Virus record (IMG/VR): IMGVR_UViG_3300050821_018098
DNA length: 64,000 bases
Reading direction: 5' to 3' (one strand)
DNA from: a virus
Lineage: Duplodnaviria; Heunggongvirae; Uroviricota; Caudoviricetes
In this document: one piece after another, positions 1,480 through 31,240 of the stretch
Numbering within the stretch: the stretch's first letter is position 1
Layout: the number at the start of each line of letters is the position of its first letter
The notes under the pieces: model-generated
Told to the model about the DNA's origin: nothing
Databases searched by the model: none
The model's input: only the letters and a program-made list of their open reading frames with translations
Position numbers and translations under genes: made by a program

Positions 1480-4400
1480 TGTTTAAATCAAGTAATTTTA
1501 TTATAGCACCAAGCTCAACAGATCTTAATCTAAAAATTAGGGATGAGTTTAACAACGTAACAAATATTTTAAAAGCTAGTAGTATTTGTAGGTTTCACAA
1601 AGATGGTGATACAATTGTAATAAATTCATCTGATTCTACTTCAGCAATATATTTAAAATTCTATAGTACTGATGAGTCCACATTAGGTATTAATATATTG
1701 TATAATGCCTGGCAGATACTAAAAGCTAATTATTTAGGTCAGGAAGCTAACAAAGCATATGTTGACAGTCAACTTTTTATTGTAGATGCTAGATTGGATA
1801 TTCTTGAAAGTAGTCATTCTACTTCAGGATTATTAATCAATGTAGGTAATGGACTAATAAAAACAGGTCTTAGTACTATATCTCTTGATATTACTGATTA
1901 TGAAACAGATGATACGATAGGATTATCGTCAACATCAGGAATTCTATTTAATGCTGCTTCTTCAACATCTGGATATGTTTCTATTGTTATGAATACTAAC
2001 AATTTTCAAATTATTGATGGTAGAAATACGAAAACAGGTATTCAATATGCTAATGATTATTCTTCTACTTATACAAATAGATCTTTAGTTGATAAAGCCT
2101 ATGTCGATAATAAATTAGCTTCATCTATAACATTTACTCCTGCTGGTGATGTAACAGGAAGTACATCAGGAATAACATCTTTAACCCCTGTTTTAACAAT
2201 AGGAACTAATGTTGTTACATTTTCTAAAATACAACAAATAAATGCTTTTTCTTTAATTGGTAATACTACAGGTTCTACAGCAAATTTAACTAATATTACT
2301 TTAGGATCTGGTTTCAGTTTTGTTGGTACCACATTAGATTATACACCATCTATTAATATAGCAGGTACTTCAGGATATGCAATATTAGCTGGAACAGCGG
2401 GTTTTGCTATCGTAGCAGGCACTGTAATTACAAATGCAAATCTATCTGGTGATATTACTAGTATAGGAAATATAACTAGTTATAATAATATAGTACCAAT
2501 AAGTAAAGGTGGAACACCAACAGGTGGAACTTCAGGACAATTTTTACAGAAAAATTCTAGTACCAATTATGATTATAGTTGGGTTAATTTATATTATCAG
2601 ACTGTACAAGTTTTGAGTACATCTGGTACTGCAAGAGCTAAATTAAATTTTAGTGGTCAATTTTCGCATACAGACGATTCAACTAATAATAGTACTGATA
2701 TCACAATTAGTTCAGTAAACTGGATTTTAATTGCTGGTACACCAACTACCATAGCTGGTTACGGAATTAGTGATGGTGTAACGTTAACAGGTACTCAGGC
2801 TTTAAGTAACAAAACAGGCAATATATCACAATGGACAAACGATTCAGGATATTTACTTAACAATAAAACAATTACTCTTTCTGGAGATGTTACTGGATCT
2901 GGTACTTCAGGTATTGTAACATCTATATCTAATACTATAATTACAGGTAAATTATTAACAGGTTACGCTTCCACTACCGGCGTTATTACAGCTAATGATT
3001 CTATATTAAGTTCTATAGAAAAATTAAATGGTAATATAGGAACCTTGGTTACAGGTGTTTCTACCTTTAATACTAGAAGTGGTAATATTACTTTAACATC
3101 TTCAGATGTTACTACAGCTCTTACCTTTACGCCTTATAATGCAACGAATCCTTCTGGATATTTGATCAACAACCAAACAATTATATTATCAGGCGATGTA
3201 AGTGGAAGTGGTACCTCAGGTATTATTACTTCGGTAAATTGGGTGAATGGATATCCAACCTACGACGCTAGATATGTAACACCTTCTAGTACAAATACAT
3301 TTACAAATAAATCAGGTAACATATCACAGTGGACAAATGATTCTGGTTATATTACTTCTGCTTCTGGTACAGCTGGAGGAGATCTAAATGGTACTTATCC
3401 TAACCCTACTGTGAATTGGGTGAATGGATACCCAACTTATGATGCTAGATATGCCGAGAAATCTGGTGTTACTTTTACTGGTGCTGTAATATTAAGTGCT
3501 GATCCTGTTGTAGCTTTAGGTGCAGCTACTAAAAATTATGTTGATAATCTTGTAACTGGTTTATCATGGAAGAATTCTGTACAAATAGCTACGGTATCAA
3601 ATATTACTTTATCTGGTGAACAAAATATTGATAATGTAATAACGTCAAACTCACGTGTATTAGTAAAAAACCAAACTACACAAACACAAAATGGTATTTA
3701 TGTTTCAAGTACAAGTGGATGGAGCAGATCCAGTGATATGAATATTGGTAGTGAAATATTTGGTGCAACAGTCTATGTTGAGACAGGTAATATAAATGCT
3801 AATACACAATGGTCAAATAATAACACTTCTGGTATAACGGTGGGTGTATCTAATATAAATTTTGTTCAGATAGCAGGTGCTGGAACATATACGAATGGTA
3901 CAGGTATTGTTTTAACAGGAAATGTTTTCAGTATAGATTCAAGTTATACAGCTACATCTGGAAGAACAGGTTATCTATCTTCTAGTGATTGGACAGTATT
4001 TAATAATAAACAAGCAGCTTTAAATGGAACAGGTCTGGTTAAATTTACAGGAACAACACCATCTTATATTACAGGAGCTTCTTCTCAATTTGTTAAAGCT
4101 GATGGTAGTTTGGATTCAAATAGTTATTTAATCAATAATCAAATAATTACTTTATCGGGTGACGTTTCCGGAAGTGGTACTTCAGGTATTACTACTTCTG
4201 TAACATGGTCAAATGGTTACTCAACTTATGATTTAAGGTATGTAACACCATCCAGCACAAATACACTCACAAATAAAACAGGTAATATATCACAATGGAC
4301 TAATGATAACGGATATTTAATTAATAATAAAACTATTACACTATCAGGTGATGTATCTGGGAGTGGGACTTCAGGTATCGTAACTTCTGTTAATTGGCCA

Positions 4401-7079: not shown

Positions 7080-9389
7080 TTGATGAACATATTACAATAC
7101 ACAACATCTACAAGTGGTACTATTACTTCACAAGATACACAACAAGATCTTCATATAATGCATGATGCCGGAGTCACAGCATCTCTTACAATAACTTTAC
7201 CTGCTACACCATTTAATGGACAAGAAGTAAAGATAACAAGTGTTAATGGAATATCATCATTAACATTAACTACTGGGGTAGGAACTATAGCAAACAATCT
7301 AACATCATTATCTGTTGGTGAATCTATAATATACAAATATCTTTCAAATCAAACAAAATGGTATTTAATTACTTCTATATCAGATATCATAGTCCCAAGA
7401 AGTAATCTACTTGCTGAATATAGATTTGATGAAGGTAGTGGTACTACTTTAACTGATTATTCGGGTAATGGAAATAATGGTACTTATGTAGGTAGTCCTA
7501 CTTTTATAAGTGGTGGTGGGTTTACCGCTTCTGGTTCTAGTTCTCCAGTCCAATATGCAACAGGTCATGCTAATTTTATTTTAACGGCACAGACTATTTA
7601 TCTAGTTTATAGCCCTGATGCTGATTCAGCTTCTACCAACCATCCGATAATGGGTAACAGTGGCGGTAATACTTATTTACAAATAGATCAATCAGACAAT
7701 ACTAATAATTCTCAATTTCCATCAGCTCATTTGTATGGTGGTACTGGATCAGGTTCAAGTGGAAAATGTTATAGTAATGATACTATACCATTATCACCAG
7801 CTATTGTAGCAGTTACTATAGATACAAATAATGCTATTCAAAGTCAAATATTTATAGAAGGTAAAGAAGTATTATCATATAATAGTAGAGCATTGAATAT
7901 TGCTTTAGGTCGAGGTGGTACACCTTGGTTTGGTGGTAATAATATAGGAAATTCTTTTGGTACATTCAACGGTAATATTTATTATGCTGCTTCTTATTCT
8001 ACTTTTCATACAGCTTCACAAGTATTACAAATTACTAATACAATAAGACAGTTATTGAATAACAGAGGAACAGTAAAACAAGATGTATATCAACCTTCTA
8101 CTTTAACTGGTCAATTACTAGCATTAGGTGATAGTATAACATGTATTAATGGAGTAGGTGGAGTAACACCTTATCTTAATAGTATAAGTACTAGAATAAC
8201 TTTCAATAAATATATTAAAGGATGGCCAGGTAATAGTTCCCAATTAGTATATGCAGCACCTGGATTATCATCTTTATATTATGCTCCGGCAGGGTCTTAT
8301 AATATTGTTAGTATTTTTCTTGGTACTAACATAATAAGTAATCAAAGTTTATATGAAGCTTGTTTTGAGGGTATAAAATCCATAGCTAAAGAATTTAAAA
8401 GAAAAGGCTGGCAAGTTTTAGTATTTACAATACCCGATAGAACTAATACCTACTCTTACATGGCTTCCTATAATGGATTATTAAGATCTTCTTTTACAAG
8501 AGATGAAATTGTTGATATAGCTGCTGATCCAAGATTAGGTACTAGTGGGGCTTCTACTAACCTTACTTATTTTCAAGCAGATCAAGTACATCCTACTAAT
8601 ACATCACAACTGTTGATAGCAGATTATTTATCAGCAAAAATCAATAGAATTACTAATTTCTCTATTGATAATAAAACATTATACTCACAAATTAACACAA
8701 GTACAGTCACAAATACTACTACAGAAACCTCAATAGTAGGTACATCTTCTGTAAATGATGTCGAATTCAATAATAGTGTATTCCTGTGTAATACTACTAA
8801 TGGTAATAATGTATTATCTGGACCTTTCTCAACTTCACAATTAGTAGTTGGTCAATTAATAACAGGTGCTGGAATCCCTACAAATACTACTATATCTAGT
8901 ATAACAGATAATAATCACTTGGTAATGAGTAATAATGCTAGTTCTAGTAATTCCAATACTGCTACAACATTTAGTTATATAGCAATGAAGCGACACTTTT
9001 TTGTTCCAGGTCAAATTATTGTTTTTGAACAAAAAGGATTGTTAACCACTGGAGTTTCACAAACTTTAAATAGAAAAGTAAAAATTGGAACTACTGTATT
9101 AGGTTCTACAGGTATAGTTACTTTACCTTCTAGTTTAACCAGTGCATTATATAAAATGAATTTAGTAGTTACCTGTGTTACAATTGGTACTTCTGGGACT
9201 TTTCAGGTACAAGGTGATTTATCAGTATATAATGGAAGCAATGGATACAGTATATACCCAATTTCAAATACTAGTGTAGTTACACTAGATACTACAATAG
9301 ATTCCATAATAGATATTACTGATATATGGGGATCTGCAAGTGCAAGCAATATCGATACATCAACAAATTTAAATATAATCAAATTATAA
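7080..9389 (+). CDS. tail fiber / receptor-binding protein with LamG-like (concanavalin-A-like) lectin domain and SGNH/GDSL hydrolase (esterase) domain
   Basis: N-terminal about 95 aa paralogous to fiber tip domain; LAEYRFDEGSGTTLTDYSGNGNNGTYVGSPTF (LamG_3-like); LLALGDSIT (GDS) and ADQVHPT (DxxH) SGNH motifs. Confidence 0.6.
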   Translation: MMNILQYTTSTSGTITSQDTQQDLHIMHDAGVTASLTITLPATPFNGQEVKITSVNGISSLTLTTGVGTIANNLTSLSVGESIIYKYLSNQTKWYLITSISDIIVPRSNLLAEYRFDEGSGTTLTDYSGNGNNGTYVGSPTFISGGGFTASGSSSPVQYATGHANFILTAQTIYLVYSPDADSASTNHPIMGNSGGNTYLQIDQSDNTNNSQFPSAHLYGGTGSGSSGKCYSNDTIPLSPAIVAVTIDTNNAIQSQIFIEGKEVLSYNSRALNIALGRGGTPWFGGNNIGNSFGTFNGNIYYAASYSTFHTASQVLQITNTIRQLLNNRGTVKQDVYQPSTLTGQLLALGDSITCINGVGGVTPYLNSISTRITFNKYIKGWPGNSSQLVYAAPGLSSLYYAPAGSYNIVSIFLGTNIISNQSLYEACFEGIKSIAKEFKRKGWQVLVFTIPDRTNTYSYMASYNGLLRSSFTRDEIVDIAADPRLGTSGASTNLTYFQADQVHPTNTSQLLIADYLSAKINRITNFSIDNKTLYSQINTSTVTNTTTETSIVGTSSVNDVEFNNSVFLCNTTNGNNVLSGPFSTSQLVVGQLITGAGIPTNTTISSITDNNHLVMSNNASSSNSNTATTFSYIAMKRHFFVPGQIIVFEQKGLLTTGVSQTLNRKVKIGTTVLGSTGIVTLPSSLTSALYKMNLVVTCVTIGTSGTFQVQGDLSVYNGSNGYSIYPISNTSVVTLDTTIDSIIDITDIWGSASASNIDTSTNLNIIKL

Positions 9390-9390
9390 T

Positions 9391-9684
9391 ATGCATGTAT
9401 TACAATACACAACAGTAACAAGCGGAACAGTAACAGCACAAGATACAGGACAGGATGTACAATTGATACATGATGCTGGTGTTACAGCCACTCTTACTAT
9501 AGCTTTTCCAGTAACAACTTTTAATGGTCAAAAATTTGGCGTAATGAGTGCTGGTGGAATTACTACACTTACATTAAGCGTAAGTGCTGGTAGTATCACA
9601 AATGCTATAAGTACATTAGCAGCTGGTGGTTGTAGTACTTATCAATATGTAACAGCACAATCAAAATGGTATAAAATATATTAG
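9391..9684 (+). CDS. small fiber-domain paralog (97 aa), possible fiber adaptor/assembly or receptor-binding accessory protein
   Basis: Whole protein aligns with N-terminus of the 7080 ORF (MHVLQYTTVTSGTVTAQDTGQD...HDAGVTATLTI...) and more weakly with the C-terminus of the 1862-aa fiber. Confidence 0.5.
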   Translation: MHVLQYTTVTSGTVTAQDTGQDVQLIHDAGVTATLTIAFPVTTFNGQKFGVMSAGGITTLTLSVSAGSITNAISTLAAGGCSTYQYVTAQSKWYKIY

Positions 9685-10449: not shown

Positions 10450-11190
10450 ATGAATTTAACTAAACCAACAATTGACTGGTATCAGAAATTGAATCAATTT
10501 AAAAATGATGAATTCAAATTTTTTGAAGCTGAACATGAATACAAATATAAAGGAAAGAAATTTGAAAGTGTAACAACCTTTATAAGTCAATTTCATGAGA
10601 AGTTTGATTCTGATTATTGGAGTCAGATTAAAGCAGAAGAGCGTGGTATCACACAACAAGAAATATTGGCTGAATGGAAAGCTAAAGCTGATAGATCATG
10701 TGATCTTGGTACTATGGTTCATGAGTATGCTGAATACAAATGTGCCGGTAAAGAACCAAAAGAAGTAACTGATGAAGAAGTTAAAAAAAGAATCATAAGT
10801 TTAGAAGAAATATTTGAAACTAAACTGAAGAAGTTTATACCTGTAGCTCAAGAGATAAAAGTATTTTCACCTAAATTAAAACTTGCTGGCACCATAGATG
10901 GTTTATTTGAATATAAACAGAAGTTGGTTGTTGGTGATTATAAAACAAATGAAAAATTTACAACGGATAGTGATAAATGTTATAAAAAGCTTAATCCACC
11001 GTTTCAAAACAGATGGGAAAATAAATTAAATGAATACAGTATACAGGTATCAATGTACCGTCTAATATTAGAAGAATGGGGTATTGAAACTGAGGCAGCA
11101 TTTTTAATACATATTCCACCAGTTGGTAAATCAAATTTCCATATAGCACATGATTTTAGAAATGAATTAAAAATATTCTTTGGTATATAA
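10450..11190 (+). CDS. PD-(D/E)xK nuclease, RecB/lambda-exo/Cas4-like family (no Fe-S Cys cluster)
   Basis: GTIDGLFEY...VVGDYKT (motifs II/III) and QVSMY (QxxxY motif) characteristic of the RecB nuclease family. Confidence 0.5.
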   Translation: MNLTKPTIDWYQKLNQFKNDEFKFFEAEHEYKYKGKKFESVTTFISQFHEKFDSDYWSQIKAEERGITQQEILAEWKAKADRSCDLGTMVHEYAEYKCAGKEPKEVTDEEVKKRIISLEEIFETKLKKFIPVAQEIKVFSPKLKLAGTIDGLFEYKQKLVVGDYKTNEKFTTDSDKCYKKLNPPFQNRWENKLNEYSIQVSMYRLILEEWGIETEAAFLIHIPPVGKSNFHIAHDFRNELKIFFGI

Positions 11191-11197
11191 ATGAAAA

Positions 11198-11237
11198 AAC
11201 CTTCCAAGTGTGCATCATAGAGAGGCATGGAAGGTTT
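11198..11237. terminator. putative bidirectional terminator hairpin between convergent genes
   Basis: aaccttcca...tggaaggtt 9-bp stem with a long loop, flanked by A-run and T-run. Confidence 0.4.
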
Positions 11238-11290: not shown

Positions 11291-11899
11291 TTACTTCTTA
11301 GCAGAAGGCTTTGGTTTACCAGCAGCTTCAGGAGTTGTAACTTTAGGTGTTACATCAGCTTTTTTATGTTTAGCAGCAGGTTTAGTTTCTGGCAAAGAAA
11401 GTTTACCCTTTTTATCTACTTTAGTAGATTTTTTAGCTTCACTTATACCTTCTGTTTCTTCAGGTTTGGTTTCGTCTGTTTCATCATCAGACATAGTATC
11501 ATCACCAAGACTATCACCCATATCTTCTGTAGAATCAGCAGCATCTGTTGTATCTTCTGCTACTTTTTCACAACAATCAGAAATTTCATCAAGGAATTTT
11601 AACATATCCTCTTTAGTAAACTCATCTTCACTACCTTCTAATTTATCTTTTAAATCAAGAATTTTAGTTTTTATATCAGCTAAAATATCATCAGCATCTA
11701 CTTCATCAGTTTCAGCATCAGTTACATCATCACCAACTTCTTTAGTTTCATCTGAAGTCATAGCATCATCAGCTGGTGCATCAGTCGATGCTGCTGGAGT
11801 TTCTAATTCATCATCAAAAGATTCTTCATTTTCTTGATTTGGTGAATAATTTTCTTTGAACATTTTCCATGTTGGTATTTTCCCGAAAGATTGTTTCAT
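11291..11899 (-). CDS. extremely acidic protein (Asp/Glu/Ser/Thr-rich) with Lys/Pro/Ala-rich basic C-terminal tail
   Basis: 202-aa ORF; body of DDE/TDE runs; C-terminus KKGKLSLPETKPAAKHKKADVTPKVTTPEAAGKPKPSAKK; overlapping plus-strand ORFs are low-complexity mirror frames. Confidence 0.5.
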   Translation of the reverse strand: MKQSFGKIPTWKMFKENYSPNQENEESFDDELETPAASTDAPADDAMTSDETKEVGDDVTDAETDEVDADDILADIKTKILDLKDKLEGSEDEFTKEDMLKFLDEISDCCEKVAEDTTDAADSTEDMGDSLGDDTMSDDETDETKPEETEGISEAKKSTKVDKKGKLSLPETKPAAKHKKADVTPKVTTPEAAGKPKPSAKK

Positions 11900-12052
11900 G
11901 TTTAATTAATTTTATTTTATTTATATATCTACCCAAATAATTCATTTTTTTACTCAGGTCACTTTAGGTAATTATATATCACAAAATAATTTTCTATTTC
12001 CAAAACTATTAACATTCATAGTATATAAAATACAAATATAACTTTAATTAAG

Positions 12053-12718
12053 ATGACGAATTTCGAAAAATTTGCCAAAGGACAAGTAGGCTCATTAGCC
12101 TTACATGATTATGTGAACTATCAAAATAAGATGAAATCTTCTATGTCAGCTTATATTCTTGAAGAAAGAACAGGAAATCTTGCTGTAATGGATATATTTT
12201 CCAGACTTATGATAGACCGAATTATATTTTTAGGTACTGAGATAGATGATATAGTTGCAAATATTGTGAATGCTCAATTGTTATATCTTGACACAGATAA
12301 AGTAAATGAACCAATAAAAATATTTATTAATAGTCCTGGTGGTGAATGTTATAGTGGTCTTGCAATACTAGATTGTATGGATATAGTGAAGTCTCCTGTA
12401 GAAACTGTATGTTTAGGTTTGTCCGCAAGTATGGCTGCTGTTATTTTAGCTCATGGGACCAAAGGTTATAGAAAAGCTACACCAAGAAGCCGAGTGATGA
12501 TTCATCAACCTTCAGGAGGTGCTGGTGGAAACACAACACAAATTTCTATAACGGCTAAAGAATATGAAGAAGTTAAATTCATTTTAGCCGAAACATTAGC
12601 AATTGACACAGGAAAAACTACAGAGGAAATTCTTAATGATTTTGTTTTTGATAAATGGTTAAGTGCTCAAGCAGCTTTGGACTATGGTCTTATTGATAAA
12701 TTAGTTATGAAAAAATAA
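12053..12718 (+). CDS. clpP: ClpP-family serine protease (Clp protease proteolytic subunit-like; candidate prohead protease)
   Basis: GLSASMAAVI (Ser), MIHQPSGG (His), ALDYGLIDKL (Asp) catalytic-triad contexts typical of ClpP/S14. Confidence 0.8.
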   Translation: MTNFEKFAKGQVGSLALHDYVNYQNKMKSSMSAYILEERTGNLAVMDIFSRLMIDRIIFLGTEIDDIVANIVNAQLLYLDTDKVNEPIKIFINSPGGECYSGLAILDCMDIVKSPVETVCLGLSASMAAVILAHGTKGYRKATPRSRVMIHQPSGGAGGNTTQISITAKEYEEVKFILAETLAIDTGKTTEEILNDFVFDKWLSAQAALDYGLIDKLVMKK

Positions 12719-12729
12719 AAAGTAAAACA

Positions 12730-13302
12730 ATGACACTAAATTGGTACGCTGTAAGAATATTAAACAATCAAGAAAATAAAGTAAAAACTTATCTTGATAG
12801 GGAGTTTATTAGAAATATAACCGGAGAATACTTAAATGAAGTATTGATTCCTGTAGAAAGATATTATGAGAAAACTAAAGATGGTAAAAAGAAACTTATA
12901 GAAAAGAAATTATTTTCTGGTTATGTGCTTATTAAAGCTGACTTAAGTAGAGAAATAGTATTGGATACAATTAAAAAAACTCCTGGTATAATTGGGTTTT
13001 TGTCTTATAAAGACAACAATAAATCATCTATACCAACACCTCTAAAAGAAAGAGAAGTTGCTCAATTTTTAGGTAGAGGATCTGATTTAACAGAAGAACA
13101 ATCAACTGATTCTGATTTGTATATCATTGGTGAATCTGTAAGAATAACAGATGGTCCATTTAAAACATTTTTTGGTGAAGTTAAAGAAATTTATGAAGAC
13201 AAGAAGAAAGTAGTAATTGATGTTACTATATTTGGACGTATCACACCAGTCGAAGTTGATTTTAAACAAACAGAAAAAGCCGAACAGAATGTTAAGGTAT
13301 AA
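12730..13302 (+). CDS. nusG: transcription antitermination/elongation factor NusG homolog
   Basis: WYAVRILNNQENKV (NGN), FSGYVLI, and KOW region GESVRITDGPFKTFFGEVKEI...IFGRITPVEVDFKQTEKA closely matching E. coli NusG [21 protein letters not shown]...IFGRATPVELDFSQVEKA. Confidence 0.8.
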   Translation: MTLNWYAVRILNNQENKVKTYLDREFIRNITGEYLNEVLIPVERYYEKTKDGKKKLIEKKLFSGYVLIKADLSREIVLDTIKKTPGIIGFLSYKDNNKSSIPTPLKEREVAQFLGRGSDLTEEQSTDSDLYIIGESVRITDGPFKTFFGEVKEIYEDKKKVVIDVTIFGRITPVEVDFKQTEKAEQNVKV

Positions 13303-13303
13303 A

Positions 13304-13332
13304 AAAAATCCCGGTTAAACCGGGATTTTTTA
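13304..13332 (+). terminator. rho-independent terminator
   Basis: atcccgg-ttaaa-ccgggat followed by tttttt. Confidence 0.8.
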
Positions 13333-13379
13333 TTTAAAATATATTCAAACTAAATAAGATTTAAGGAATATAAATTCAT

Positions 13380-15215
13380 ATGATAAATGATAAAATACAA
13401 GGTACCATAAACCATAAAAATATTGATTTTGCTTTGGTAGAATTTGAAGATGGTGGTTCTCTTAAAGTAAAAAGTAAAAGCCTTAATAAGGCTCTACATG
13501 GAGATCTTGTTGAAATAGGTATAGAAGGTAAAGAATACTTTGTAAGTAAAATAATTCAAAGAAGTATACAACATAAAATTAAAGGACAATTAAAAATAAA
13601 TAAAAATTTAACTTTTTTTGTTCCTCAAGAATCAAATTATTATACAGATTTCTTCATACCAACAAAGTTTTATCTCCAAGGTATGGATGATAAAGATTAT
13701 GTAACAGTTGAATTTTTAAGCTGGGGTGATAAAGATAAGAATCCAACAGCGAAGATTTTAAGTATAGATGGTAACAAATTTACACCAAGGATAGCTACTA
13801 AATTTTTAATCAATGAAATGAATCTTAGGACAGATTTTCCTAATTCTGTTATAGCCCAGGTAGAAAGAATTGAAATTACTGATGATATGTTAATAGGTCG
13901 AAAAGACTTTAGACAACATTTAACTTTTACAATAGATCCAGCAACAGCCAAAGACCATGATGATGCAATATCAATAGAAAAAACAGATAAAGGTTATAGG
14001 GTTGGTATTCATATTGCTGATGTGTCAGCTTTTGTTACACCAGGTACAGCTTTAGATATTGAAGCTTTTGAAAGAGGATGTTCTGTCTACTTAGTGGATG
14101 AACATATACCAATGCTTCCAGAAAAACTATCATCCGATCTATGCAGTCTTATACCAAATGTAGATAGATTATCTTTTTCTGTAATATATGATATAAGTAA
14201 TGAATATAAAATTGAAGGTTACTGGGTTGGAAAAACAATTATTAATTCAAATGAAAATATTTCATATGAAGAGGCCCAAGCAATTTTAGACGATAATGAA
14301 CACAAGTATCATGAAACATTATCTATTTTAAATGATATAGCAGAGTATTTTACTAATACTAGAGAATCTATAGATTTAGAGGCTCCAGAACTCGAATTTA
14401 CACTTGATGAACAAGCATTTCCTATAAAAATAGGTTTGAAAAAAAGACTTGCTACACATAAGTTGATAGAAGCTTTTATGCTTATGGCTAACCAAACTGT
14501 AGCAGAAATACTTAGTAACTATGGTCCAGGTATATACCGAGCACATCCTAAACCAAGCAAACTACAAATATTAGAAATGTATGATTCATTAAAAAAAATG
14601 GGTCTTACTTTAAATTTAAGTGAAGAAGATATAAAGAAAAGTTTGGATGAATTAAAAAGTAATACTCCAGAAGAATTAACTTCTACTGTTCGTGATACTA
14701 TTCTTAGGAGTCTACCAAAAGCCTATTATACTTCAGATGTTGAGGTAGGACACTTTGGTTTAGGGTTTAAATATTACACACATTTCACATCGCCTATAAG
14801 AAGATATCCTGATATCATCGCACATAGATTATTAAATTGTGTAATAGAAAAGAAACAATCTCTTATAACAGATCTTGAATCTAAAGCTGTACTTTTGAGT
14901 AAACGTGAAAAAGTTGCTCAACAAACTGAAAGAGAATCAAGCAGCCAAAAAATGACATTGTTTATGGAGACAATTAATTATCCCATATCAGCTAAAATAG
15001 TAAGTATAAAAGATTGGGGTGTATTTGTGAAGACTGAATTATTATCCGAAGGACTCATACCTATTCATAGTCTGAAAGGTAAATATAAAGATGGTGTAAT
15101 GAAATGCCCCAACTTTACGCTAAAAGTTAATGACTATCTAGTTGTGAAAAAAGAAAGATGTGATTTAAAAAATAGAAGAGTTTATTTCGAACTATTACAA
15201 AAGAAAATTTACTAA
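13380..15215 (+). CDS. RNase II / RNase R family 3'-5' exoribonuclease (RNB domain + C-terminal S1)
   Basis: RNB motifs DDAISIE, GIHIADVSAFV, SVYLVDEHIPMLP, HFGLGFKYYTHFTSPIRRYPDIIAHR; C-terminal S1-like VKIVSIKDWGVFVKT. Confidence 0.8.
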   Translation: MINDKIQGTINHKNIDFALVEFEDGGSLKVKSKSLNKALHGDLVEIGIEGKEYFVSKIIQRSIQHKIKGQLKINKNLTFFVPQESNYYTDFFIPTKFYLQGMDDKDYVTVEFLSWGDKDKNPTAKILSIDGNKFTPRIATKFLINEMNLRTDFPNSVIAQVERIEITDDMLIGRKDFRQHLTFTIDPATAKDHDDAISIEKTDKGYRVGIHIADVSAFVTPGTALDIEAFERGCSVYLVDEHIPMLPEKLSSDLCSLIPNVDRLSFSVIYDISNEYKIEGYWVGKTIINSNENISYEEAQAILDDNEHKYHETLSILNDIAEYFTNTRESIDLEAPELEFTLDEQAFPIKIGLKKRLATHKLIEAFMLMANQTVAEILSNYGPGIYRAHPKPSKLQILEMYDSLKKMGLTLNLSEEDIKKSLDELKSNTPEELTSTVRDTILRSLPKAYYTSDVEVGHFGLGFKYYTHFTSPIRRYPDIIAHRLLNCVIEKKQSLITDLESKAVLLSKREKVAQQTERESSSQKMTLFMETINYPISAKIVSIKDWGVFVKTELLSEGLIPIHSLKGKYKDGVMKCPNFTLKVNDYLVVKKERCDLKNRRVYFELLQKKIY

Positions 15216-15421
15216 TGCAAGATCTAAGAAAAAAAGAAAAATTAAAAAACGTTTACACGGATCACTTACCTAAGATCAATTATAAAAATTTATTAAAGAA
15301 ATCTATATGGATAGGTTCTGTTGTGATATTAGCAGTATTGATTAGTTTTCCCTATCAAATAGGTTATATTATAGGGAAATGGTGGAATTTATTCCTAGTT
15401 GGTTTCAGTGGTACCAACTGA
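15215..15421 (+). CDS. small membrane protein (hypothetical)
   Basis: 68-aa ORF with one hydrophobic helix; start overlaps stop of RNase R-like gene. Confidence 0.3.
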   Translation: MQDLRKKEKLKNVYTDHLPKINYKNLLKKSIWIGSVVILAVLISFPYQIGYIIGKWWNLFLVGFSGTN

Positions 15422-15431
15422 GGTTTTTTTC
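15395..15431 (+). terminator. rho-independent terminator overlapping stop codon
   Basis: cctagttggt-ttcagtggt-accaactgagg followed by ttttttt. Confidence 0.6.
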
Positions 15432-15838
15432 TTATAATAATTTTCAACAGCTGTATTTAAACTATTTGGATTACCAACTTTTAATCTATTTTCTAATTCT
15501 AAAAGGATGCTTCCTAGAAATGTTGTATTAATGTTTGTACCACGTTTACAAGGAACAACCATTTTTTCATCCCTTGCATATATCCATATCTGTTGATCTA
15601 TACCCGGAAATGTATAAAATTGCAATAACCCAGCAGTCCCCATTTTATAACAAAAGCTACCAGTTTCATTTATAAAACGTTCAACAAAACCATCTTTTAT
15701 ATTAATAATAGTTTTATTGTTTTGAGTTTTATCATCAGATACTGCCGTAAATGATTTACCAAGATCAACTTTAAACTCTTTAAAATTACGTTGAAAGGCA
15801 CCTATTATATCTTTACTTGTTACAATATAAATCTCCAT
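15395..15838 (-). CDS. hypothetical protein
   Basis: 147-aa ORF, no recognisable motifs. Confidence 0.3.
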   Translation of the reverse strand: MEIYIVTSKDIIGAFQRNFKEFKVDLGKSFTAVSDDKTQNNKTIINIKDGFVERFINETGSFCYKMGTAGLLQFYTFPGIDQQIWIYARDEKMVVPCKRGTNINTTFLGSILLELENRLKVGNPNSLNTAVENYYKKKTSVGTTETN

Positions 15839-15851
15839 ACAACTATTTATA

Positions 15852-16400
15852 TTAATAAATGTTATCCGTCAAATCTTCTGAATCACCAACCTCTCTGGCT
15901 TCTTTATCACTTTTTGGTTTTTCAAAAATTGTTTTTACAATATCTTTTATTGTTTTTAAAAATAATTTCTCTTTAAGATCTTCTTTGATGTCAATTTTTT
16001 GATCCATTTCTTTTAAAATATTCATATCATTATCATCATAACAATAATAATAAACAGCGATGGTTTTTAAAGCATCTAACTCAGCATCGGGAATATCCAG
16101 TTTATAACAAACTTTCCAAGCGTATATTGCCGTTTCGTTTAAAAAATAAGTAAACCATAGAGTCAAATCACTTTCTGTTTGTTCAATATCTTGAAGTTCA
16201 AAACGAACTTTTCGACCTTTATCATCTTCTTGACCTTTTGACATCCGGCCCCATTTGAACCAATATTTAATTTTAACTTTTAACTCTCTAAAAAAATCCC
16301 GACCAATTACAATATCTTGTTTTTTAATATTTTTATCTTCTCCACTAGTAGCTGGTACTGTCTGTTCTTCAAATTCCTCATATTTTTGTAAATATTTCAT
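15852..16400 (-). CDS. hypothetical protein with CTS-like N-terminal leader (MKYLQKYEEFEEQ); candidate head-packaged internal protein
   Basis: 182-aa ORF; leader shared with 5 other ORFs. Confidence 0.4.
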   Translation of the reverse strand: MKYLQKYEEFEEQTVPATSGEDKNIKKQDIVIGRDFFRELKVKIKYWFKWGRMSKGQEDDKGRKVRFELQDIEQTESDLTLWFTYFLNETAIYAWKVCYKLDIPDAELDALKTIAVYYYCYDDNDMNILKEMDQKIDIKEDLKEKLFLKTIKDIVKTIFEKPKSDKEAREVGDSEDLTDNIY

Positions 16401-16444
16401 CCTAATAAACTAATTCTTTGATGTATATATCAAAAAAATTGTAA

Positions 16445-16702
16445 TTAAATGGATCTTACAAGCATCTTTCCTTCTTCAGAAAGCACATATGTATTAAAAG
16501 TATCATCAATATCTTTAAGTTCTATGAGTTTTGTTGTTTGTAAAAATTGAAAGGTTCTATATTGGATCTGTTCACATAATGGATGAATAGGCTTCATAAG
16601 CTTAATATTGTACAATAATGGCTTCCTAGCAATCACTTTTAAAAGATTTTTTTGAGCCGATGTAAATTTATTTCCATTTTTCATACTAATAATTTTAAAC
16701 AA
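16445..16702 (-). CDS. hypothetical protein
   Basis: 85-aa ORF. Confidence 0.3.
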   Translation of the reverse strand: MFKIISMKNGNKFTSAQKNLLKVIARKPLLYNIKLMKPIHPLCEQIQYRTFQFLQTTKLIELKDIDDTFNTYVLSEEGKMLVRSI

Positions 16703-16744
16703 ATGTAAAAAATATTATACAAGAATAAAAGCATTATTCCATAA

Positions 16745-17857
16745 ATGAATATTACGGATGAATTCAAATTAAGTTTCTTTCAAGGCCCACGAGTAGATAT
16801 TAAGGGTGAAAGTAAAAAAATGTATACTGTCAAGTTCATTAACCCTATCAATGAAACAGTTGTTTTTCAACAAAAAATAGAAATAAACCAATATGCTAGG
16901 GCATATCAGGAATATTTTATACCATGGATTATAAAAATTGATGACCAAGAAGGTAATAATCAGCTTACTTATCAATTTACAACCGAAGGAAAGAGAATAT
17001 TTATAACCTTTGAATCTGGAGCTTTAGGTGATACTATTTGTTGGCTTCCTTATGTCGAAGAATTCAGAAAAAAACACAACTGTACAGTAATTGTATCAAC
17101 TTTCTTTAATTTTCTATTTGAGAAAGAATATCCTGAATTAGAATTTCATGACAGAACAAAACCTATTACTAATATACAAGCCGTTTATAAAATTGGTTGG
17201 TTTGGTTCTGGTGAAGCAACTTTCAGAAATCCTATCGACGTAAGGGAACAACCTTTACAAAAACTTGCTGCTGATATATTGGGGATGGATTATACACCGG
17301 TAAAAACTAAAATTAGTAGAGATACCAGACCTTCTTTATTTAATCAGGGTAAATATGTTGTTATAACTACTTGTAGTACAGCTCAATTTAAATATTGGAA
17401 CAATCCTATTGGATGGCAAACCGTTGTTATGTATTTAAAGAGTATTGGTTACACAGTCATTAATATTGGTAAACACGAAAATAATCTGAGTGGTGTAATT
17501 AATATGACCGGCACAAAACCCATGGAGGATATTATAAACCTTATTCAAAACGCTGATTTCATGATTGGTTTGAGTTCCGGTTTAAATTGGTTGGCATGGG
17601 GGTTAGATGTCCCTAACATTATGATCTCTGGTATGACCATGGACTGGAACGAATATGAAAATCCTTATAGGATCATTAATAAATCAGTTTGTCATGGTTG
17701 TTTTAATAAGAAAGAAGTGACTTTTAATAAGGGAAAATGGGATTTTTGTTTTTTTGAACAAGGTAAACCTGATCAGTTTATATGTACTAAAACTATTACA
17801 CCTGAGACAGTTATAGAAGTAATTGATAAATTACGAAAAGATAAAAATATAATATAA
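16745..17857 (+). CDS. putative glycosyltransferase (GT9/heptosyltransferase-like fold)
   Basis: ITTCSTAQFKYWNNPIGWQTVVMYLKSIGYTVINIG resembles the K(R)WP...L...G..VVL.G region of LPS heptosyltransferases; weak. Confidence 0.35.
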   Translation: MNITDEFKLSFFQGPRVDIKGESKKMYTVKFINPINETVVFQQKIEINQYARAYQEYFIPWIIKIDDQEGNNQLTYQFTTEGKRIFITFESGALGDTICWLPYVEEFRKKHNCTVIVSTFFNFLFEKEYPELEFHDRTKPITNIQAVYKIGWFGSGEATFRNPIDVREQPLQKLAADILGMDYTPVKTKISRDTRPSLFNQGKYVVITTCSTAQFKYWNNPIGWQTVVMYLKSIGYTVINIGKHENNLSGVINMTGTKPMEDIINLIQNADFMIGLSSGLNWLAWGLDVPNIMISGMTMDWNEYENPYRIINKSVCHGCFNKKEVTFNKGKWDFCFFEQGKPDQFICTKTITPETVIEVIDKLRKDKNII

Positions 17858-17860
17858 AAA

Positions 17861-18307
17861 ATGGCCATACTAAATTATACCACCAAAATTGATGCTTTCA
17901 AAACCATATCAGAGATCCAATCGATGTTGGTTAAAAGAGGTGTTAAATCAATTATTGTTGATTATGATGATACTGGTATACCAGTTGGCCTTACCTTCTT
18001 CTTATACATTAATGATTCACCTATCAACTTTAAATTACCGTCTAATTATCCAGGAGTTTTAAGAGTCATGATTAAAGATAAGAAAATACCAAAATCAGCT
18101 TTGACTAAGGAACAGGCAACCAGAGTTTCTTGGAGAATACTAAAAGACTGGATAGAAGCTCAAATGGCTCTTATAGATGCTCAAATAGCTAAACTTGAAC
18201 AAGTATTCCTACCTTATGCGGTAACAGATACCGGTGAAACTTTATTTGATAGAATGCAAAACTCAAATATGATTGAAAATATAACATCACCAAAACTTTT
18301 ACAATAA
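17861..18307 (+). CDS. hypothetical protein
   Basis: 148-aa ORF between two glycosyltransferase-like genes. Confidence 0.3.
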   Translation: MAILNYTTKIDAFKTISEIQSMLVKRGVKSIIVDYDDTGIPVGLTFFLYINDSPINFKLPSNYPGVLRVMIKDKKIPKSALTKEQATRVSWRILKDWIEAQMALIDAQIAKLEQVFLPYAVTDTGETLFDRMQNSNMIENITSPKLLQ

Positions 18308-18308
18308 T

Positions 18309-19004
18309 ATGAAAATAAGAATTGATGTTCCCTGTTATAACAGAAAAGAAATAACAGAATTGTGTTTGAAACAAATGTTTGAAACAAAAGGATCTAATGG
18401 TTTTATCAGAACCTATAATGATCACAGCGAAGATTACGACAATGATTTTCTTGAACCTTATTCAGATGCTGGCGTTATTAGACTACTCCAGAAAACTAAT
18501 ATTCATTCTATTAGAAGCCACGGGTTTCGCTCCTTTTTGGAAAATGATGAATATGATTTTCTTTATATGACTGATAATGATGCTTTTGTTGATCCTAATT
18601 GGTTAAATCGACTTTTAGAAATGTATAAACTTACAGGGTTACCTTGTAGTATATTTCATTCTAAATATGTCCCACAATCCATTGCTTATGCAAAAGATGC
18701 CGATATTTTAATAAAACCTGGGTTCACTGGTATAAGCGAATTCTTTCATAGAACACATGTTGAAAAAATTGTTAATTATTTAAATATACATGGTGATTTT
18801 CAGGATATGTGGGATTGTGTTATATGGGGTATACTCGGGCATAGATTTGCTGTATCAGGAACTTCTTATACAGAACACCTTGGTGTAGATGGTATGCATC
18901 ATAAAACATGGGACTCTGAAAAATCACTTAATCCAACATTATATCTTAAGGAAAAATGGGATGAAATTGTACCACAATTAGATGCTATTTTAAAAAATAA
19001 ATAA
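18309..19004 (+). CDS. putative GT-A fold glycosyltransferase
   Basis: N-terminal VPCYNRKEITELCLKQM resembles GT2 IPTYNR...L..CL motif; DND acidic motif; weak. Confidence 0.3.
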   Translation: MKIRIDVPCYNRKEITELCLKQMFETKGSNGFIRTYNDHSEDYDNDFLEPYSDAGVIRLLQKTNIHSIRSHGFRSFLENDEYDFLYMTDNDAFVDPNWLNRLLEMYKLTGLPCSIFHSKYVPQSIAYAKDADILIKPGFTGISEFFHRTHVEKIVNYLNIHGDFQDMWDCVIWGILGHRFAVSGTSYTEHLGVDGMHHKTWDSEKSLNPTLYLKEKWDEIVPQLDAILKNK

Positions 19005-23796: not shown

Positions 23797-24024
23797 TTAT
23801 TTCTTGTGACTAGTATGTTCCTTTATGAATTCAGTGCCTTTTTTATAAATATCAGAGCCCTCTATCATTTTAATACTGCTATTTAAAAAAGGTATTTTAC
23901 TTTTTATGAATATGAAAGATGTTGGATCTAGTTTTATAAGTATTATAATACCAATTATACCTCCTGGTATAACTATACAAAGACCAAAAAGTAATAAAAA
24001 AACAAGTAATTTAAATTTATACAT
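23797..24024 (-). CDS. small membrane protein
   Basis: 75-aa ORF with strongly hydrophobic core (LLVFLLLFGLCIVIPGGIIGIIILI). Confidence 0.3.
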   Translation of the reverse strand: MYKFKLLVFLLLFGLCIVIPGGIIGIIILIKLDPTSFIFIKSKIPFLNSSIKMIEGSDIYKKGTEFIKEHTSHKK

Positions 24025-31215: not shown

Positions 31216-31240
31216 TTTTAAACAAATATAAATCACAACT

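What the first reader, a model, noticed from the sequence alone, without database searches (positions are those of the whole stretch)
12730..13302. Canonical NusG encoded by a phage
The protein aligns end to end with bacterial NusG. It has the NGN domain WYAVR and the KOW domain, with IFGRITPVEVDFKQTEKA nearly identical to E. coli IFGRATPVELDFSQVEKA. Phage-encoded NusG paralogs are uncommon. One could redirect host RNAP processivity or antitermination onto phage transcripts, or couple transcription to translation in an AT-rich genome prone to Rho termination.
Basis: partly seen in the sequence, partly recalled or inferred. Interest (0 to 1): 0.5.

Follow-up and report, generated by a model that had tools for sequence, protein, structure and literature searches.

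The report
Housekeeping-type NusG in a huge phage
A relative of the largest known bacteriophages carries its own full-length copy of NusG, the universal bacterial transcription-elongation factor; the gene is real and conserved, but huge phages were already annotated with such genes, and none has ever been tested.

Summary
ORF 12730-13302 (+) encodes a 190-aa two-domain NusG (NGN plus KOW). It aligns end to end with E. coli and B. subtilis NusG and clears NCBI's housekeeping NusG cutoff (144 vs 135.7 bits). It fails the RfaH, LoaP and UpxY models. The KOW residues that E. coli NusG uses to bind S10 and Rho are conserved.

The locus is phage DNA, not host or chimeric. Composition is typical of the window. 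Six neighbouring genes are collinear with curated huge phage LR756504. Two independently assembled relatives keep clpP-nusG followed by a terminator hairpin.

The nearest cellular NusGs are Bacteroidota (Cytophagales, 41-46% identity), but the phage clade does not nest within them. It is an old, selected phage lineage (pN/pS 0.2-0.37).

The most likely role is binding host RNA polymerase on phage DNA, to sustain elongation and to link it to ribosomes or modulate Rho. This is inferred, not shown.

It is not new in kind. All five >630 kb phage genomes have a NusG, phage G has a NusG-like gene, at least 179 IMG/VR contigs and PHROG 6386 cover such genes, and JGI already names this protein. No functional study was found. 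Verdict: new member of a known, unstudied kind; moderate-to-low interest.

The parts
12053..12718 (+). clpP: full-length ClpP-type serine protease subunit (221 aa), first gene of the clpP-nusG bicistron
   Evidence: Pfam CLP_protease E 7e-60. Best NCBIfam model is PRK14514, matched over its full length but below the equivalog cutoff (226 vs 361 bits). It aligns over aa 33-220 with solved ClpP 6hwm (E 4e-55), with the ASMAA (Ser), MIHQP (His) and D..LSA (Asp) catalytic motifs conserved. It lies upstream of nusG in relatives L003 (75% identity) and L004 (61%).
12730..13302 (+). nusG: 190-aa housekeeping-type NusG homolog. It starts 11 nt after the clpP stop codon, with no Shine-Dalgarno sequence evident.
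   Evidence: TIGR00922 scores 144 bits against a cutoff of 135.7. The identical protein (P0001) is named 'transcriptional antiterminator NusG' by JGI and is seen on 2 contigs of up to 167 kb.
12739..13068 (+). NGN domain (aa 4-113), the RNAP-binding domain of NusG/Spt5 proteins
   Evidence: Pfam PF02357 E 1e-19. AF2 gives an alpha/beta fold with pLDDT about 80-92. It superposes on the B. subtilis NusG NGN domain (8ehq_G) at rmsd 2.5 A, TM 0.84. W5, Y6, E15, P41, G64, Y65 and F90 are invariant in alignment A1.
13123..13278 (+). KOW domain (aa 132-183), a five-strand beta-barrel with an intact partner-binding surface
   Evidence: Pfam PF00467 E 1e-7. AF2 strands are 136-139, 148-155, 160-167, 170-177 and 181-183, pLDDT about 88-91. 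It superposes on the E. coli NusG C-terminal domain (2jvv) at rmsd 0.9 A, TM 0.87, 53% identity. E. coli F144, G146, I164, F165, G166 and R167 correspond to window F147, G149, I167, F168, G169 and R170, all conserved; N145 is F148.
13303..13335 (+). Intrinsic-terminator-like hairpin directly after the nusG stop codon: AAAAAAAUCCCGG-UUAAA-CCGGGAUUUUUU followed by AUUU. The A-tract and U-tract make it potentially bidirectional.
   Evidence: Sequence read. RNA fold gives -17.1 kcal/mol, z -3.46, with 0 of 200 shuffles as stable. An equivalent hairpin follows nusG in L003 (same stem, different loop; -22.9 kcal/mol, z -5.1) and in L004 (different stem sequence, same architecture; -15.5, z -4.7). 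The consensus terminator scan did not list it.
13380..15215 (+). rnr: RNase R/RNase II-family 3'-5' exoribonuclease (611 aa), downstream of the terminator
   Evidence: Pfam RNB E 4e-98, plus CSD2 and S1. TIGR02063 RNase_R scores 474 bits, below its 598 cutoff, and matches model positions 67-666 of 711, so the termini are shortened. The DHDDA active-site motif is visible in the translation. Homologs at about 36% identity occur in LR756504, LR745206 and LR756502. It is collinear with LR756504.
15215..19004 (.). Neighbourhood shared with huge phage LR756504: a small ORF (15215-15421 +), two minus-strand ORFs (15395-15838, 15852-16400), GT9 (16745-17857 +) and GT2 (18309-19004 +)
   Evidence: tblastn of the window proteins against LR756504 435-485 kb finds these genes in the same order and orientation at 451.8-462.3 kb. 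rnr lies at 447.7 kb and nusG at 463.3 kb. The glycosyltransferase families come from Pfam.

Best explanation
This is a functional, housekeeping-type NusG homolog encoded by a huge tailed phage of the Mahaphage group. That group's members are predicted to infect Bacteroidota. The gene has been inherited within the phage lineage for a long time. In this sub-lineage it is expressed as the second gene of a clpP-nusG bicistron that ends at an intrinsic terminator.

Inferred mechanism: the NGN domain binds the beta-prime clamp helices and beta gate loop of the host multisubunit RNA polymerase while it transcribes phage DNA, which suppresses pausing and backtracking. The KOW domain keeps the canonical S10/Rho-binding surface. 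It could tether the lead ribosome (transcription-translation coupling) or engage Rho.

Net effect, also inferred: phage transcription of a very AT-rich (29% GC) genome stays supplied with an elongation factor tuned to the phage, independent of host NusG levels during takeover.

Shown here: gene identity, domain architecture, conserved interface residues, phage provenance, purifying selection, operon layout. Inferred: the RNAP target, the partners, and the direction of the effect on Rho.
For: Identity:
- NGN plus KOW domains.
- TIGR00922 scores 144 bits, above the 135.7 cutoff, while LoaP (88 vs 125), UpxY (65 vs 100) and RfaH (40 vs 144.5) all fail.
- End-to-end alignment with E. coli and B. 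subtilis NusG.
- AF2 predicts NGN, a disordered linker and a beta-barrel KOW (pLDDT 81). All top Foldseek PDB hits are NusG.
- The E. coli KOW interface residues F144, G146, I164, F165, G166 and R167 are conserved.

Phage provenance:
- The UvsX-like recombinase has its best hits (48-53% identity) in the five >630 kb huge phages, then in Lak phages.
- The window carries a phage replication module and many ORFs with no known family.
- Six genes are collinear with LR756504.
- GC, GC3 and codon-usage z-scores of clpP, nusG and rnr lie within about 1.3 sd of the window's genes. The block's tetranucleotide distance ranks 39th of 39, the most typical. GC3 is 15-18%, whereas the Cytophagales nusG loci have 34-51% overall GC.

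Old, selected phage lineage:
- The clade of the window, P0002 (75% identical) and P0003 (63%) has 100% bootstrap support. Only 0.5% of replicates nest it in the Cytophagales.
- pN/pS is 0.21-0.37 with synonymous sites saturated.

Operon:
- An 11-nt gap separates clpP from nusG.
- A terminator hairpin follows nusG and is conserved with compensatory change in L003 and L004.

Host RNAP as the target:
- No RNAP subunit is found in the window.
- The nearest cellular NusGs are Bacteroidota (41-46% identity).
- Bacteroidota is the phylum predicted as host for the >634 kb phages (PMC7162821).
Against: - No experiment or expression data exist for this protein or for any phage NusG.
- The window covers only 64 kb of a contig of at least 167 kb, so a phage-encoded RNAP elsewhere cannot be excluded. 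The tblastn search with a bacterial beta-prime showed no LR7565xx record among 60 of 106 hits. That is not exhaustive, and divergent phage RNAPs could be missed.
- The phage copies score 25-40 bits lower on the NusG model than cellular Bacteroidota NusGs (144 vs 170-184). So functional divergence, for example loss of Rho stimulation, is possible.
- N145 of the E. coli interface is F in this protein.
- Whether Bacteroidota NusG binds Rho or S10 in the E. coli manner is not established here.
- No promoter was identified for the operon.
Confidence: 0.55

Rival explanations
1. Rho antagonist or competitive replacement. The phage NusG occupies the single NusG site on host RNAP but no longer stimulates Rho, or it sequesters Rho through its KOW domain. 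It would act as a general anti-terminator that shields foreign, AT-rich phage transcripts from Rho-dependent silencing, in effect like RfaH or phage P4 Psu.
For: - The genome is 29% GC. AT-rich foreign DNA is the classic target of Rho-dependent silencing of xenogenes (review PMC7819879).
- The phage copies are consistently more divergent from the NusG model than host copies.
- One interface residue is changed (E. coli N145 is F148 here).
- PHROG 6386, which this protein matches at E 1e-22, is labelled 'transcription antiterminator'.
Against: - The core Rho/S10-contacting residues (F147, I167, F168, G169, R170) are all conserved, which does not suggest loss of partner binding.
- The protein fails every specialised-paralog model.
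- The PHROG label is an annotation, not a tested function.
Confidence: 0.22
2. Operon-specific antiterminator of the RfaH/UpxY/LoaP type. It would be recruited by a specific DNA or RNA element in the phage genome to switch on a particular long transcription unit, for example late or glycosylation genes.
For: - Specialised NusG paralogs are typically encoded on horizontally acquired DNA and next to glycosyltransferase-rich operons (PMC7819879).
- GT9 and GT2 genes lie 3.4-6 kb downstream in the window.
- GT or epimerase genes flank nusG in LR756504 and LR756501.
Against: - Scores are far below the cutoffs for RfaH, LoaP and UpxY and above the cutoff for housekeeping NusG.
- AF2 predicts a beta-barrel KOW, not an autoinhibitory helical hairpin.
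- nusG sits at the 3' end of a bicistron and is followed by a terminator, not at the head of a target operon.
- The glycosyltransferase association is lineage synteny: 5 of 60 AT-rich viral loci, all from two lineages.
- No recruitment element was identified.
Confidence: 0.1
3. It acts on a phage-encoded multisubunit RNA polymerase located outside the window, not on the host enzyme.
For: Some jumbo phages encode their own multisubunit RNAPs (one search lists many). Only 64 kb of a contig of at least 167 kb is visible.
Against: - No RNAP gene is in the window.
- None of the 60 listed rows of 106 beta-prime matches in the phage collection was one of the five huge phages or a Lak phage.
- A related lineage of large Bacteroidota phages is reported to lack RNAP genes (PMC12619734).
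- The protein is closest to NusGs of the predicted host phylum.
Confidence: 0.06
4. Host-derived DNA: a chimeric assembly, a bacterial contig, or a very recent host capture with no phage function.
For: - NusG, ClpP and RNase R are all typical cellular housekeeping families.
- Many 'phage' database records with NusG are in fact bacterial contamination (L010, L014: nusG-rplKAJL).
Against: - There is no secE, rplK or rplA next to nusG.
- Identity to any cellular NusG is at most 46%.
- Composition and codon usage are indistinguishable from the rest of the window.
- The neighbourhood is collinear with a curated complete huge-phage genome.
- clpP-nusG-terminator is conserved in two independent assemblies at 63-75% amino-acid identity.
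- The gene is under purifying selection.
- Bootstrap support for nesting in the Cytophagales is 0.5%.
Confidence: 0.02

Closest known systems
Housekeeping NusG of Bacteroidota, order Cytophagales (e.g. Arundinibacter, Fibrella, Runella, Dyadobacter; loci L095-L174) and unnamed metagenomic cellular NusGs P0004, P0005 and P0007
   Same: Same length and two-domain architecture. Same NusG equivalog family. Highest identity of any cellular group (41-46%). Same conserved NGN and KOW residues.
   Different: The cellular genes sit in secE-nusG-rplKAJL-rpoBC, while the phage gene sits in clpP-nusG-terminator. Cellular copies score 170-184 bits on TIGR00922 against 144 here. The phage clade does not nest within them. 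GC3 is 15% here, against 34-51% overall GC for the cellular loci.
NusG homologs of the >630 kb 'Mahaphage' huge phages LR756504, LR756501/LR756503, LR756502 and LR745206 (Al-Shayeb et al. 2020, PMC7162821)
   Same: Phage-encoded, non-ribosomal context, AT-rich genomes. Four of five records pass or nearly pass the NusG equivalog cutoff (140-167 bits). The FGR loop is conserved. LR756504 shares a collinear neighbourhood with the window and is the most frequent single sister in bootstraps (32%). One genome's GenBank file in the paper's supplement already annotates the gene as NusG.
   Different: Only 33-41% identical to the window protein. None has clpP next to nusG; ClpP in LR756504 is about 170 kb away. 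NusG is not discussed in the paper's text.
Bacillus phage G gp582, 'NusG-like transcription antitermination factor'
   Same: A NusG-family gene in the only cultivated phage of about 500 kb. It is annotated in RefSeq and mentioned in one sentence as an antiterminator (PMC12484599).
   Different: 28% identity. It fails the NusG equivalog cutoff (95 bits), matches only model positions 1-141, and lacks the KOW F-G-R loop (K-I-E at those columns). The host is a Firmicute. It is a much more divergent, probably specialised protein.
E. coli and B. subtilis NusG (PDB 2jvv, 6gov, 8ehq and others)
   Same: End-to-end alignment at 33-36% identity. The predicted domains superpose at 0.9-2.5 A. The S10/Rho-contacting residues defined in E. 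coli are conserved.
   Different: Different phylum. The biochemical behaviours known for these two proteins (Rho stimulation and coupling in E. coli, pause stimulation in B. subtilis) differ from each other, so neither predicts the phage protein's behaviour.
Specialised NusG paralogs RfaH, LoaP and UpxY
   Same: NGN plus KOW architecture. Encoded on horizontally mobile or accessory DNA. They act as antiterminators (PMC7819879).
   Different: All three NCBIfam models score far below cutoff. The KOW domain is predicted as a beta-barrel with canonical interface residues. The gene is not placed at the head of an operon.

Membership tests
NusG, housekeeping type (NCBIfam TIGR00922 equivalog) | N-terminal NGN domain (Pfam PF02357) | tested here: met
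   aa 4-113, E 1e-19, 71 bits against a 22.2 cutoff. The AF2 NGN fold superposes on 8ehq_G at 2.5 A.
NusG, housekeeping type (NCBIfam TIGR00922 equivalog) | Single C-terminal KOW domain folded as a beta-barrel | tested here: met
   PF00467 at aa 134-164, 31.8 bits against a 22.3 cutoff. AF2 predicts five strands with pLDDT about 90. Superposition on the E. coli NusG C-terminal domain gives 0.9 A.
NusG, housekeeping type (NCBIfam TIGR00922 equivalog) | Whole-protein score above the curated equivalog cutoff, with full-length model coverage | tested here: met
   144.0 bits against 135.7, model positions 1-171 of 172. The margin is small. Cellular Bacteroidota NusGs score 170-184.
NusG, housekeeping type (NCBIfam TIGR00922 equivalog) | Conservation of the KOW surface that binds S10 (NusE) and Rho in E. 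coli (F144, N145, G146, I164, F165, G166, R167) | tested here: met
   Six of the seven residues are identical; N145 is F148. The residue list comes from established E. coli literature recalled from memory. The numbering was verified against the PDB alignment.
NusG, housekeeping type (NCBIfam TIGR00922 equivalog) | Orthologous genomic position (secE-nusG-rplKAJL-rpoBC) | tested here: not met
   The neighbours are clpP and rnr, with no secE or rplK. This is expected for a phage copy. It means the gene is a xenolog or paralog of the host gene, not the host's ortholog in position.
NusG, housekeeping type (NCBIfam TIGR00922 equivalog) | Binds the RNAP elongation complex and modulates pausing, Rho termination or ribosome coupling | not testable with these tools
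   This needs biochemistry or in vivo assays.
RfaH | Score above the TIGR01955 / NF006534 cutoff; C-terminal domain able to adopt an autoinhibitory alpha-helical hairpin; ops-dependent recruitment | tested here: not met
   39.7 bits against 144.5, and 31.6 against 124. AF2 predicts a beta-barrel C-terminal domain. No search for an ops element was made.
LoaP / UpxY antiterminators | Score above the NF033641 / NF033644 cutoff; gene at the 5' end of its target biosynthetic operon | tested here: not met
   LoaP 88.2 bits against 125; UpxY 65.1 against 100. The gene is the last of a bicistron and is followed by a terminator.
PHROG 6386 (phage 'transcription antiterminator', NusG-like) | Significant full-length match to the PHROG profile | tested here: met
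   E 1.2e-22, aa 3-183 against profile positions 13-178 of 179. The functional label is only an annotation.
Mahaphage-group huge phages (for the contig that carries the gene) | Core genes most similar to those of the >630 kb and Lak phages, and shared gene order | tested here: met
   UvsX is 48-53% identical to the five >630 kb genomes and 35% to Lak. ClpP is 52% to LR756504 and 45-47% to Lak. Six genes are collinear with LR756504. Terminase and capsid phylogeny, which the clade's authors used to define it, could not be done because those genes are not in the window.

The most novel reading that the evidence does not exclude
The conserved clpP-nusG bicistron is a host-takeover cassette. The phage NusG displaces host NusG on the host RNA polymerase, keeping polymerase and ribosome contacts but changing the outcome for Rho. 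This would make transcription of the AT-rich phage genome resistant to Rho-dependent xenogene silencing. The co-expressed phage ClpP would remodel the host proteome, possibly removing host transcription factors. That would make a housekeeping-type NusG, not a specialised paralog, a viral anti-silencing weapon, and a general feature of the largest phages of Bacteroidota.
Probability: 0.15. Interest if true: 0.6.

Novelty: new member of a known kind. Interest (0 to 1): 0.35.

Why it matters
NusG/Spt5 is the only transcription factor conserved in all cellular life. Phages were known to exploit the host's NusG (lambda N and Q antitermination) or to block Rho (P4 Psu). A virus that brings its own near-canonical NusG is a different strategy, and one the NusG field has not examined: two major reviews do not mention phage copies.

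This locus gives a compact, well-defined test case:
- a 190-aa protein with intact interface residues;
- a clear predicted host phylum;
- a conserved two-gene operon with its terminator.

If the protein changes how host RNAP responds to Rho or to ribosomes, it would show how the largest phages keep hundreds of kilobases of AT-rich DNA transcribed. It would also provide a natural NusG variant for dissecting Bacteroidota transcription.

As a sequence finding, however, it extends an annotation that already exists in public huge-phage records.

Tried and rejected
1. Retrieving the source contig. The look-up of encoding contigs on the window protein and on the identical P0001 returned nothing. The listing of cluster members gave no accession. 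The rest of the contig (at least 167 kb) could not be inspected for capsid, terminase or RNAP genes.

2. Single-protein scan of IMG/VR found no close relative. The alignment-based scan worked.

3. The genome scan with the broad alignment A1 failed for lack of a conserved stretch and was repeated with A2. Its patterns came from an alignment containing P0004 and P0005. The exclusive recovery of Cytophagales among the top 80 may therefore be partly pattern-biased. The Bacteroidota origin is firmer than the order-level claim.

4. The metagenome scan with the three-member clade alignment found no further close relatives. The clade remains three sequences.

5. The sigma-70 promoter scan was not enriched (25 found against 34 expected). 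It does not model Bacteroidota promoters, and no operon promoter was identified. The terminator scan missed the hairpin that was found by eye.

6. The idea that NusG is generally linked to glycosyltransferase genes in phages, as for UpxY and RfaH, was rejected. Only 5 of 60 AT-rich viral loci have homologs of the tested GT or epimerase genes, and all come from two lineages. Synteny with LR756504 explains it. The test detects only homologs of six query proteins, so it is weak.

7. The origin of the phage NusG could not be resolved at order level by neighbour-joining on 181 columns. The sister group of the window clade is unstable: LR756504 32%, mixed 35%, cellular only 4%. No maximum-likelihood software was available.

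It was rerun with A3.

9. Literature searches for NusG with 'huge phages', 'jumbo phage' or 'phage-encoded NusG' returned nothing. The only mentions found were brief: phage G gp582 and an H. pylori prophage 'NusG-like' gene.

10. Most NusG hits in the deposited phage collection were rejected as bacterial contamination. MaAM05, MT836236 and the Staphylococcus, Listeria, Enterococcus, Acinetobacter and Salmonella records carry rplKAJL and/or rpoC.
Full report
**1. The observation**

An uninterrupted ORF runs from ATG 12730 to TAA 13300-13302 on the + strand and encodes 190 aa.
- Pfam finds a NusG NGN domain (aa 4-113, E 1e-19) and a KOW motif (aa 134-164, E 1e-7).
- NCBIfam's housekeeping model TIGR00922 aligns aa 5-183 to positions 1-171 of 172. 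It scores 144.0 bits, just above the curated equivalog cutoff of 135.7.
- The specialised-paralog models all fail: LoaP 88 vs 125, UpxY 65 vs 100, RfaH 40 vs 144.5.
- phmmer against PDB sequences aligns the protein end to end with B. subtilis NusG (E 6e-29) and with E. coli NusG residues 8-181 (E 9e-26).
- AlphaFold2 with a 40-sequence alignment (mean pLDDT 81) predicts an alpha/beta NGN domain, a disordered linker (aa 118-126) and a five-strand beta-barrel.
- All top Foldseek hits in the PDB are NusG. The NGN domain superposes on 8ehq_G at 2.5 A and the KOW domain on the E. coli NusG C-terminal domain at 0.9 A.

**2. Is it canonical?**

I took E. coli numbering from the alignment. The KOW residues known from the E. 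coli literature (my recollection, not a tool result) to contact S10 and Rho are F144, G146, I164, F165, G166 and R167. They correspond to window F147, G149, I167, F168, G169 and R170, and all are identical. N145 is F148. The invariant NGN residues W5, Y6, E15, P41, G64, Y65 and F90 are also present.

So this is a housekeeping-type NusG, not an RfaH/LoaP/UpxY-type paralog. It is still somewhat diverged. Cellular Bacteroidota NusGs score 170-184 bits on the same model.

**3. Is it a phage? Is the locus chimeric?**

The window is about 29% GC throughout and has no tRNA genes.

It encodes a large-phage replication and nucleotide-metabolism set:
- a UvsX-like recombinase, a DnaB-like helicase and a second helicase;
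- a clamp loader and exonucleases;
- ribonucleotide reductase, thymidylate synthase and a uracil-DNA glycosylase.

It also encodes a 1862-aa protein with segments matching phage tail-fibre and virion proteins, and many ORFs with no known family.

The UvsX-like protein's best matches in the phage collection are the five genomes of 634-735 kb (48-53% identity), followed by the Lak megaphages at 35%. These form the 'Mahaphage' group of Al-Shayeb et al. 2020, predicted to infect Bacteroidetes (PMC7162821).

- **Composition.** The GC, GC3 and codon-usage z-scores of clpP, nusG and rnr lie within about 1.3 sd of the window's genes. The block's tetranucleotide profile is the most typical of 39 sliding windows. 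Its GC3 is 15-18%, whereas the Cytophagales nusG loci have 34-51% overall GC.
- **Synteny with a curated phage.** Six window genes lie in the same order and orientation in LR756504 at 447.7-462.3 kb: rnr, the small ORF at 15215, two minus-strand ORFs, GT9 and GT2. LR756504's nusG follows at 463.3 kb.
- **Independent assemblies.** Two metagenomic relatives (L003, NusG 75% identical; L004, 63%) keep clpP immediately upstream of nusG. L003 also has the start of an RNase R gene downstream.
- **Clade repertoire.** ClpP homologs occur in LR756504 (52%) and all Lak phages (45-47%). RNase R homologs occur in three of the >630 kb genomes at about 36%.

No capsid or terminase gene lies in the window, and the rest of the contig could not be retrieved. 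I put the phage assignment at about 0.9-0.95, not at certainty.

**4. Relatives and origin**

- In the 5.8-billion-protein collection, the identical protein is named 'transcriptional antiterminator NusG' by JGI and occurs on two contigs of up to 167 kb.
- After the two close relatives, the next hits (43-46% identity) are cellular NusGs in the classic secE-nusG-rplKAJL-rpoBC context.
- In one genome per species of GTDB, the 80 best matches (41-46%) are all Bacteroidota, almost all of the order Cytophagales. The search patterns may favour that order.
- Huge-phage NusGs are 33-41% identical.
- A neighbour-joining tree with 200 bootstraps gives the window clade 100% support. Only 0.5% of replicates nest it within the Cytophagales. 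Its sister is unresolved; LR756504 alone is sister in 32% of replicates.
- pN/pS within the clade is 0.21-0.37, with synonymous sites saturated.

Together with the synteny, this indicates an old capture from, or shared ancestry with, Bacteroidota. The gene was then inherited vertically under purifying selection in the phage lineage, with a local rearrangement that placed nusG behind clpP in this sub-lineage.

**5. How common is it?**

Among 50,697 deposited phage records, 29 match at E <= 1e-5. Most are bacterial DNA mislabelled as phage, carrying rplKAJL and/or rpoC. The genuine ones are the five huge-phage records (four genomes) and Bacillus phage G gp582.

In IMG/VR at least 179 contigs encode relatives. 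None of the 80 inspected has rplK or rplA nearby. About 55 of them are AT-rich, 23 of those are on contigs of at least 100 kb, and 10 on contigs of at least 200 kb. Lak phages did not appear among the NusG hits.

PHROG 6386 ('transcription antiterminator') already groups such proteins. One curated huge-phage GenBank file in the 2020 supplement annotates a NusG.

The literature held here contains no analysis of phage NusG:
- it is absent from the text of the huge-phage paper;
- two NusG reviews do not cover it;
- phage G gp582 gets one sentence.

The gene class is therefore known to annotators but unstudied.

**6. Anatomy of the unit**

- clpP (12053-12718) is a full-length ClpP with Ser, His and Asp motifs intact. 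It is not a capsid-maturation protease fusion.
- nusG starts 11 nt after the clpP stop codon.
- Directly after the nusG stop lies AAAAAAAUCCCGG-UUAAA-CCGGGAUUUUUU-AUUU (13303-13335). It folds at -17.1 kcal/mol, z -3.5.
- L003 has the same stem with a different loop. L004 has a different stem sequence in the same place with the same A-tract, stem and U-tract layout. That is structural conservation with sequence turnover.
- clpP-nusG is therefore a bicistron ending at an intrinsic terminator.
- rnr (13380-15215) lies beyond the terminator. It has RNB, CSD and S1 domains and the DHDDA motif, and is shortened at both ends relative to RNase R.
- No promoter could be assigned.

**7. Mechanism**

Shown: a conserved, selected, intact NusG with canonical interface residues, in a phage whose visible DNA has no RNAP gene.

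Inferred from established NusG biology (PMC7819879; structures):
- the NGN domain binds the host RNAP clamp helices and gate loop and reduces pausing;
- the KOW domain tethers S10 on the lead ribosome or contacts Rho.

The most likely role is to keep host RNAP processive and coupled on phage templates during takeover, which fits the many transcription and translation genes of huge phages.

Rivals:
- a competitive Rho antagonist (0.22);
- an operon-specific antiterminator (0.10);
- action on a phage RNAP (0.06);
- host or chimeric DNA (0.02).

**8. Verdict**

Novelty is 'new member of a known kind'. Interest is about 0.35. This is a clean, testable example of an understudied phenomenon with a newly described conserved clpP-nusG-terminator cassette, but it is neither the first phage NusG nor surprising given what huge phages are known to carry.

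Noticed in passing
window 13303-13335 (+); L003 about 1223-1262; L004 about 795-819: A strong hairpin with an A-tract before it and a U-tract after it sits directly after the nusG stop codon. It is conserved in position and architecture in both relatives, with a different stem sequence in L004. The consensus terminator scan did not report it.
   Followed up: yes
window 11199-11234 (-): Marginal Rfam hit to the 'abiF RNA' motif (RF03085, 38.5 bits against a gathering score of 37, E 0.002). It lies in the gap between the convergent genes 10450-11190 (+) and 11291-11899 (-). It may simply be a terminator hairpin.
   Followed up: no
window 12730-19004 against LR756504.1 447748-463805 (L177): A collinear block (rnr, small ORF, two minus-strand ORFs, GT9, GT2) is shared with the 636 kb huge phage. 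nusG sits at opposite ends of the block in the two genomes, so there was a local rearrangement. The LR756504 block is about 16 kb against 6.3 kb here, which implies insertions.
   Followed up: yes
window 7080-9389 (+) and 9391-9684 (+): The 97-aa ORF right after the 769-aa GDSL-lipase-domain protein is a paralog of that protein's N-terminal ~97 residues (MxxLQYTTxTSGTxTxQDTxQD...). This looks like a tail-fibre or receptor-binding cassette with a duplicated or exchangeable N-terminal module, downstream of a 1862-aa protein with segments matching phage tail-fibre and virion proteins.
   Followed up: no
window 45945-49451 (-) and 29402-30574 (+): The ribonucleotide reductase large subunit is 1168 aa. 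Its RNR-homologous parts (aa 5-294 and 650-1158) are separated by about 350 aa that match only unknown-function PHROGs, so an intein or inserted domain is possible. Thymidylate synthase (390 aa) likewise carries an insertion of about 100 aa relative to its PHROG profile.
   Followed up: no
phage collection records MW495066.1 (L010), MT836236.1 (L014), OR844998.1, OR846596.1/OR846602.1, CAKLQH020000005.1, AFYI01000006.1 and others: Many records deposited as phage that match NusG are bacterial DNA (secE-nusG-rplKAJL-rpoBC and metabolic genes). 'Microcystis phage MaAM05' has 53% GC and carries ilvD and kdgK next to nusG. These inflate the apparent counts of phage NusG.
   Followed up: partly
L012 (LR756502.1) and L013 (LR745206.1), around 4100-6520: These two huge phages share local synteny around their nusG: a topoisomerase-like gene of about 615 aa, then a 324-aa ORF, a 131-135-aa ORF and nusG. 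This differs from the context in LR756504, LR756501 and the window. The LR745206 copy falls below the NusG equivalog cutoff (111 bits).
   Followed up: partly
IMG/VR loci L053, L057, L059, L063, L065, L066, L074-L076, L079, L082, L085, L088, L091-L094: A second, unrelated group of viral NusG-like genes lies on GC-rich (58-68%) contigs. Many of these contigs are 31-52 kb and several come from isolate genomes (prophage-sized). They are 23-30% identical to the window protein over its length and form their own deep clade in the tree.
   Followed up: no
window 30673-32773 (+); 24017-26224 (-); 63135-63635 (+): Other unusual cargo: an NfeD-like protein followed by an SPFH/Band-7 protein (a membrane-scaffold pair), a 735-aa ankyrin-repeat protein, and a TnsA-like endonuclease N-terminal domain protein.
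   Followed up: no
window 11291-11899 (-): A 202-aa, extremely acidic (D/E/T-rich), low-complexity protein with a basic C-terminal tail. It is transcribed divergently from clpP and matches no family. A TAGTTTTG motif, which fits the Bacteroidota -7 promoter consensus as I recall it, lies on the minus strand at about 12001-12008, upstream of this gene.
   Followed up: no
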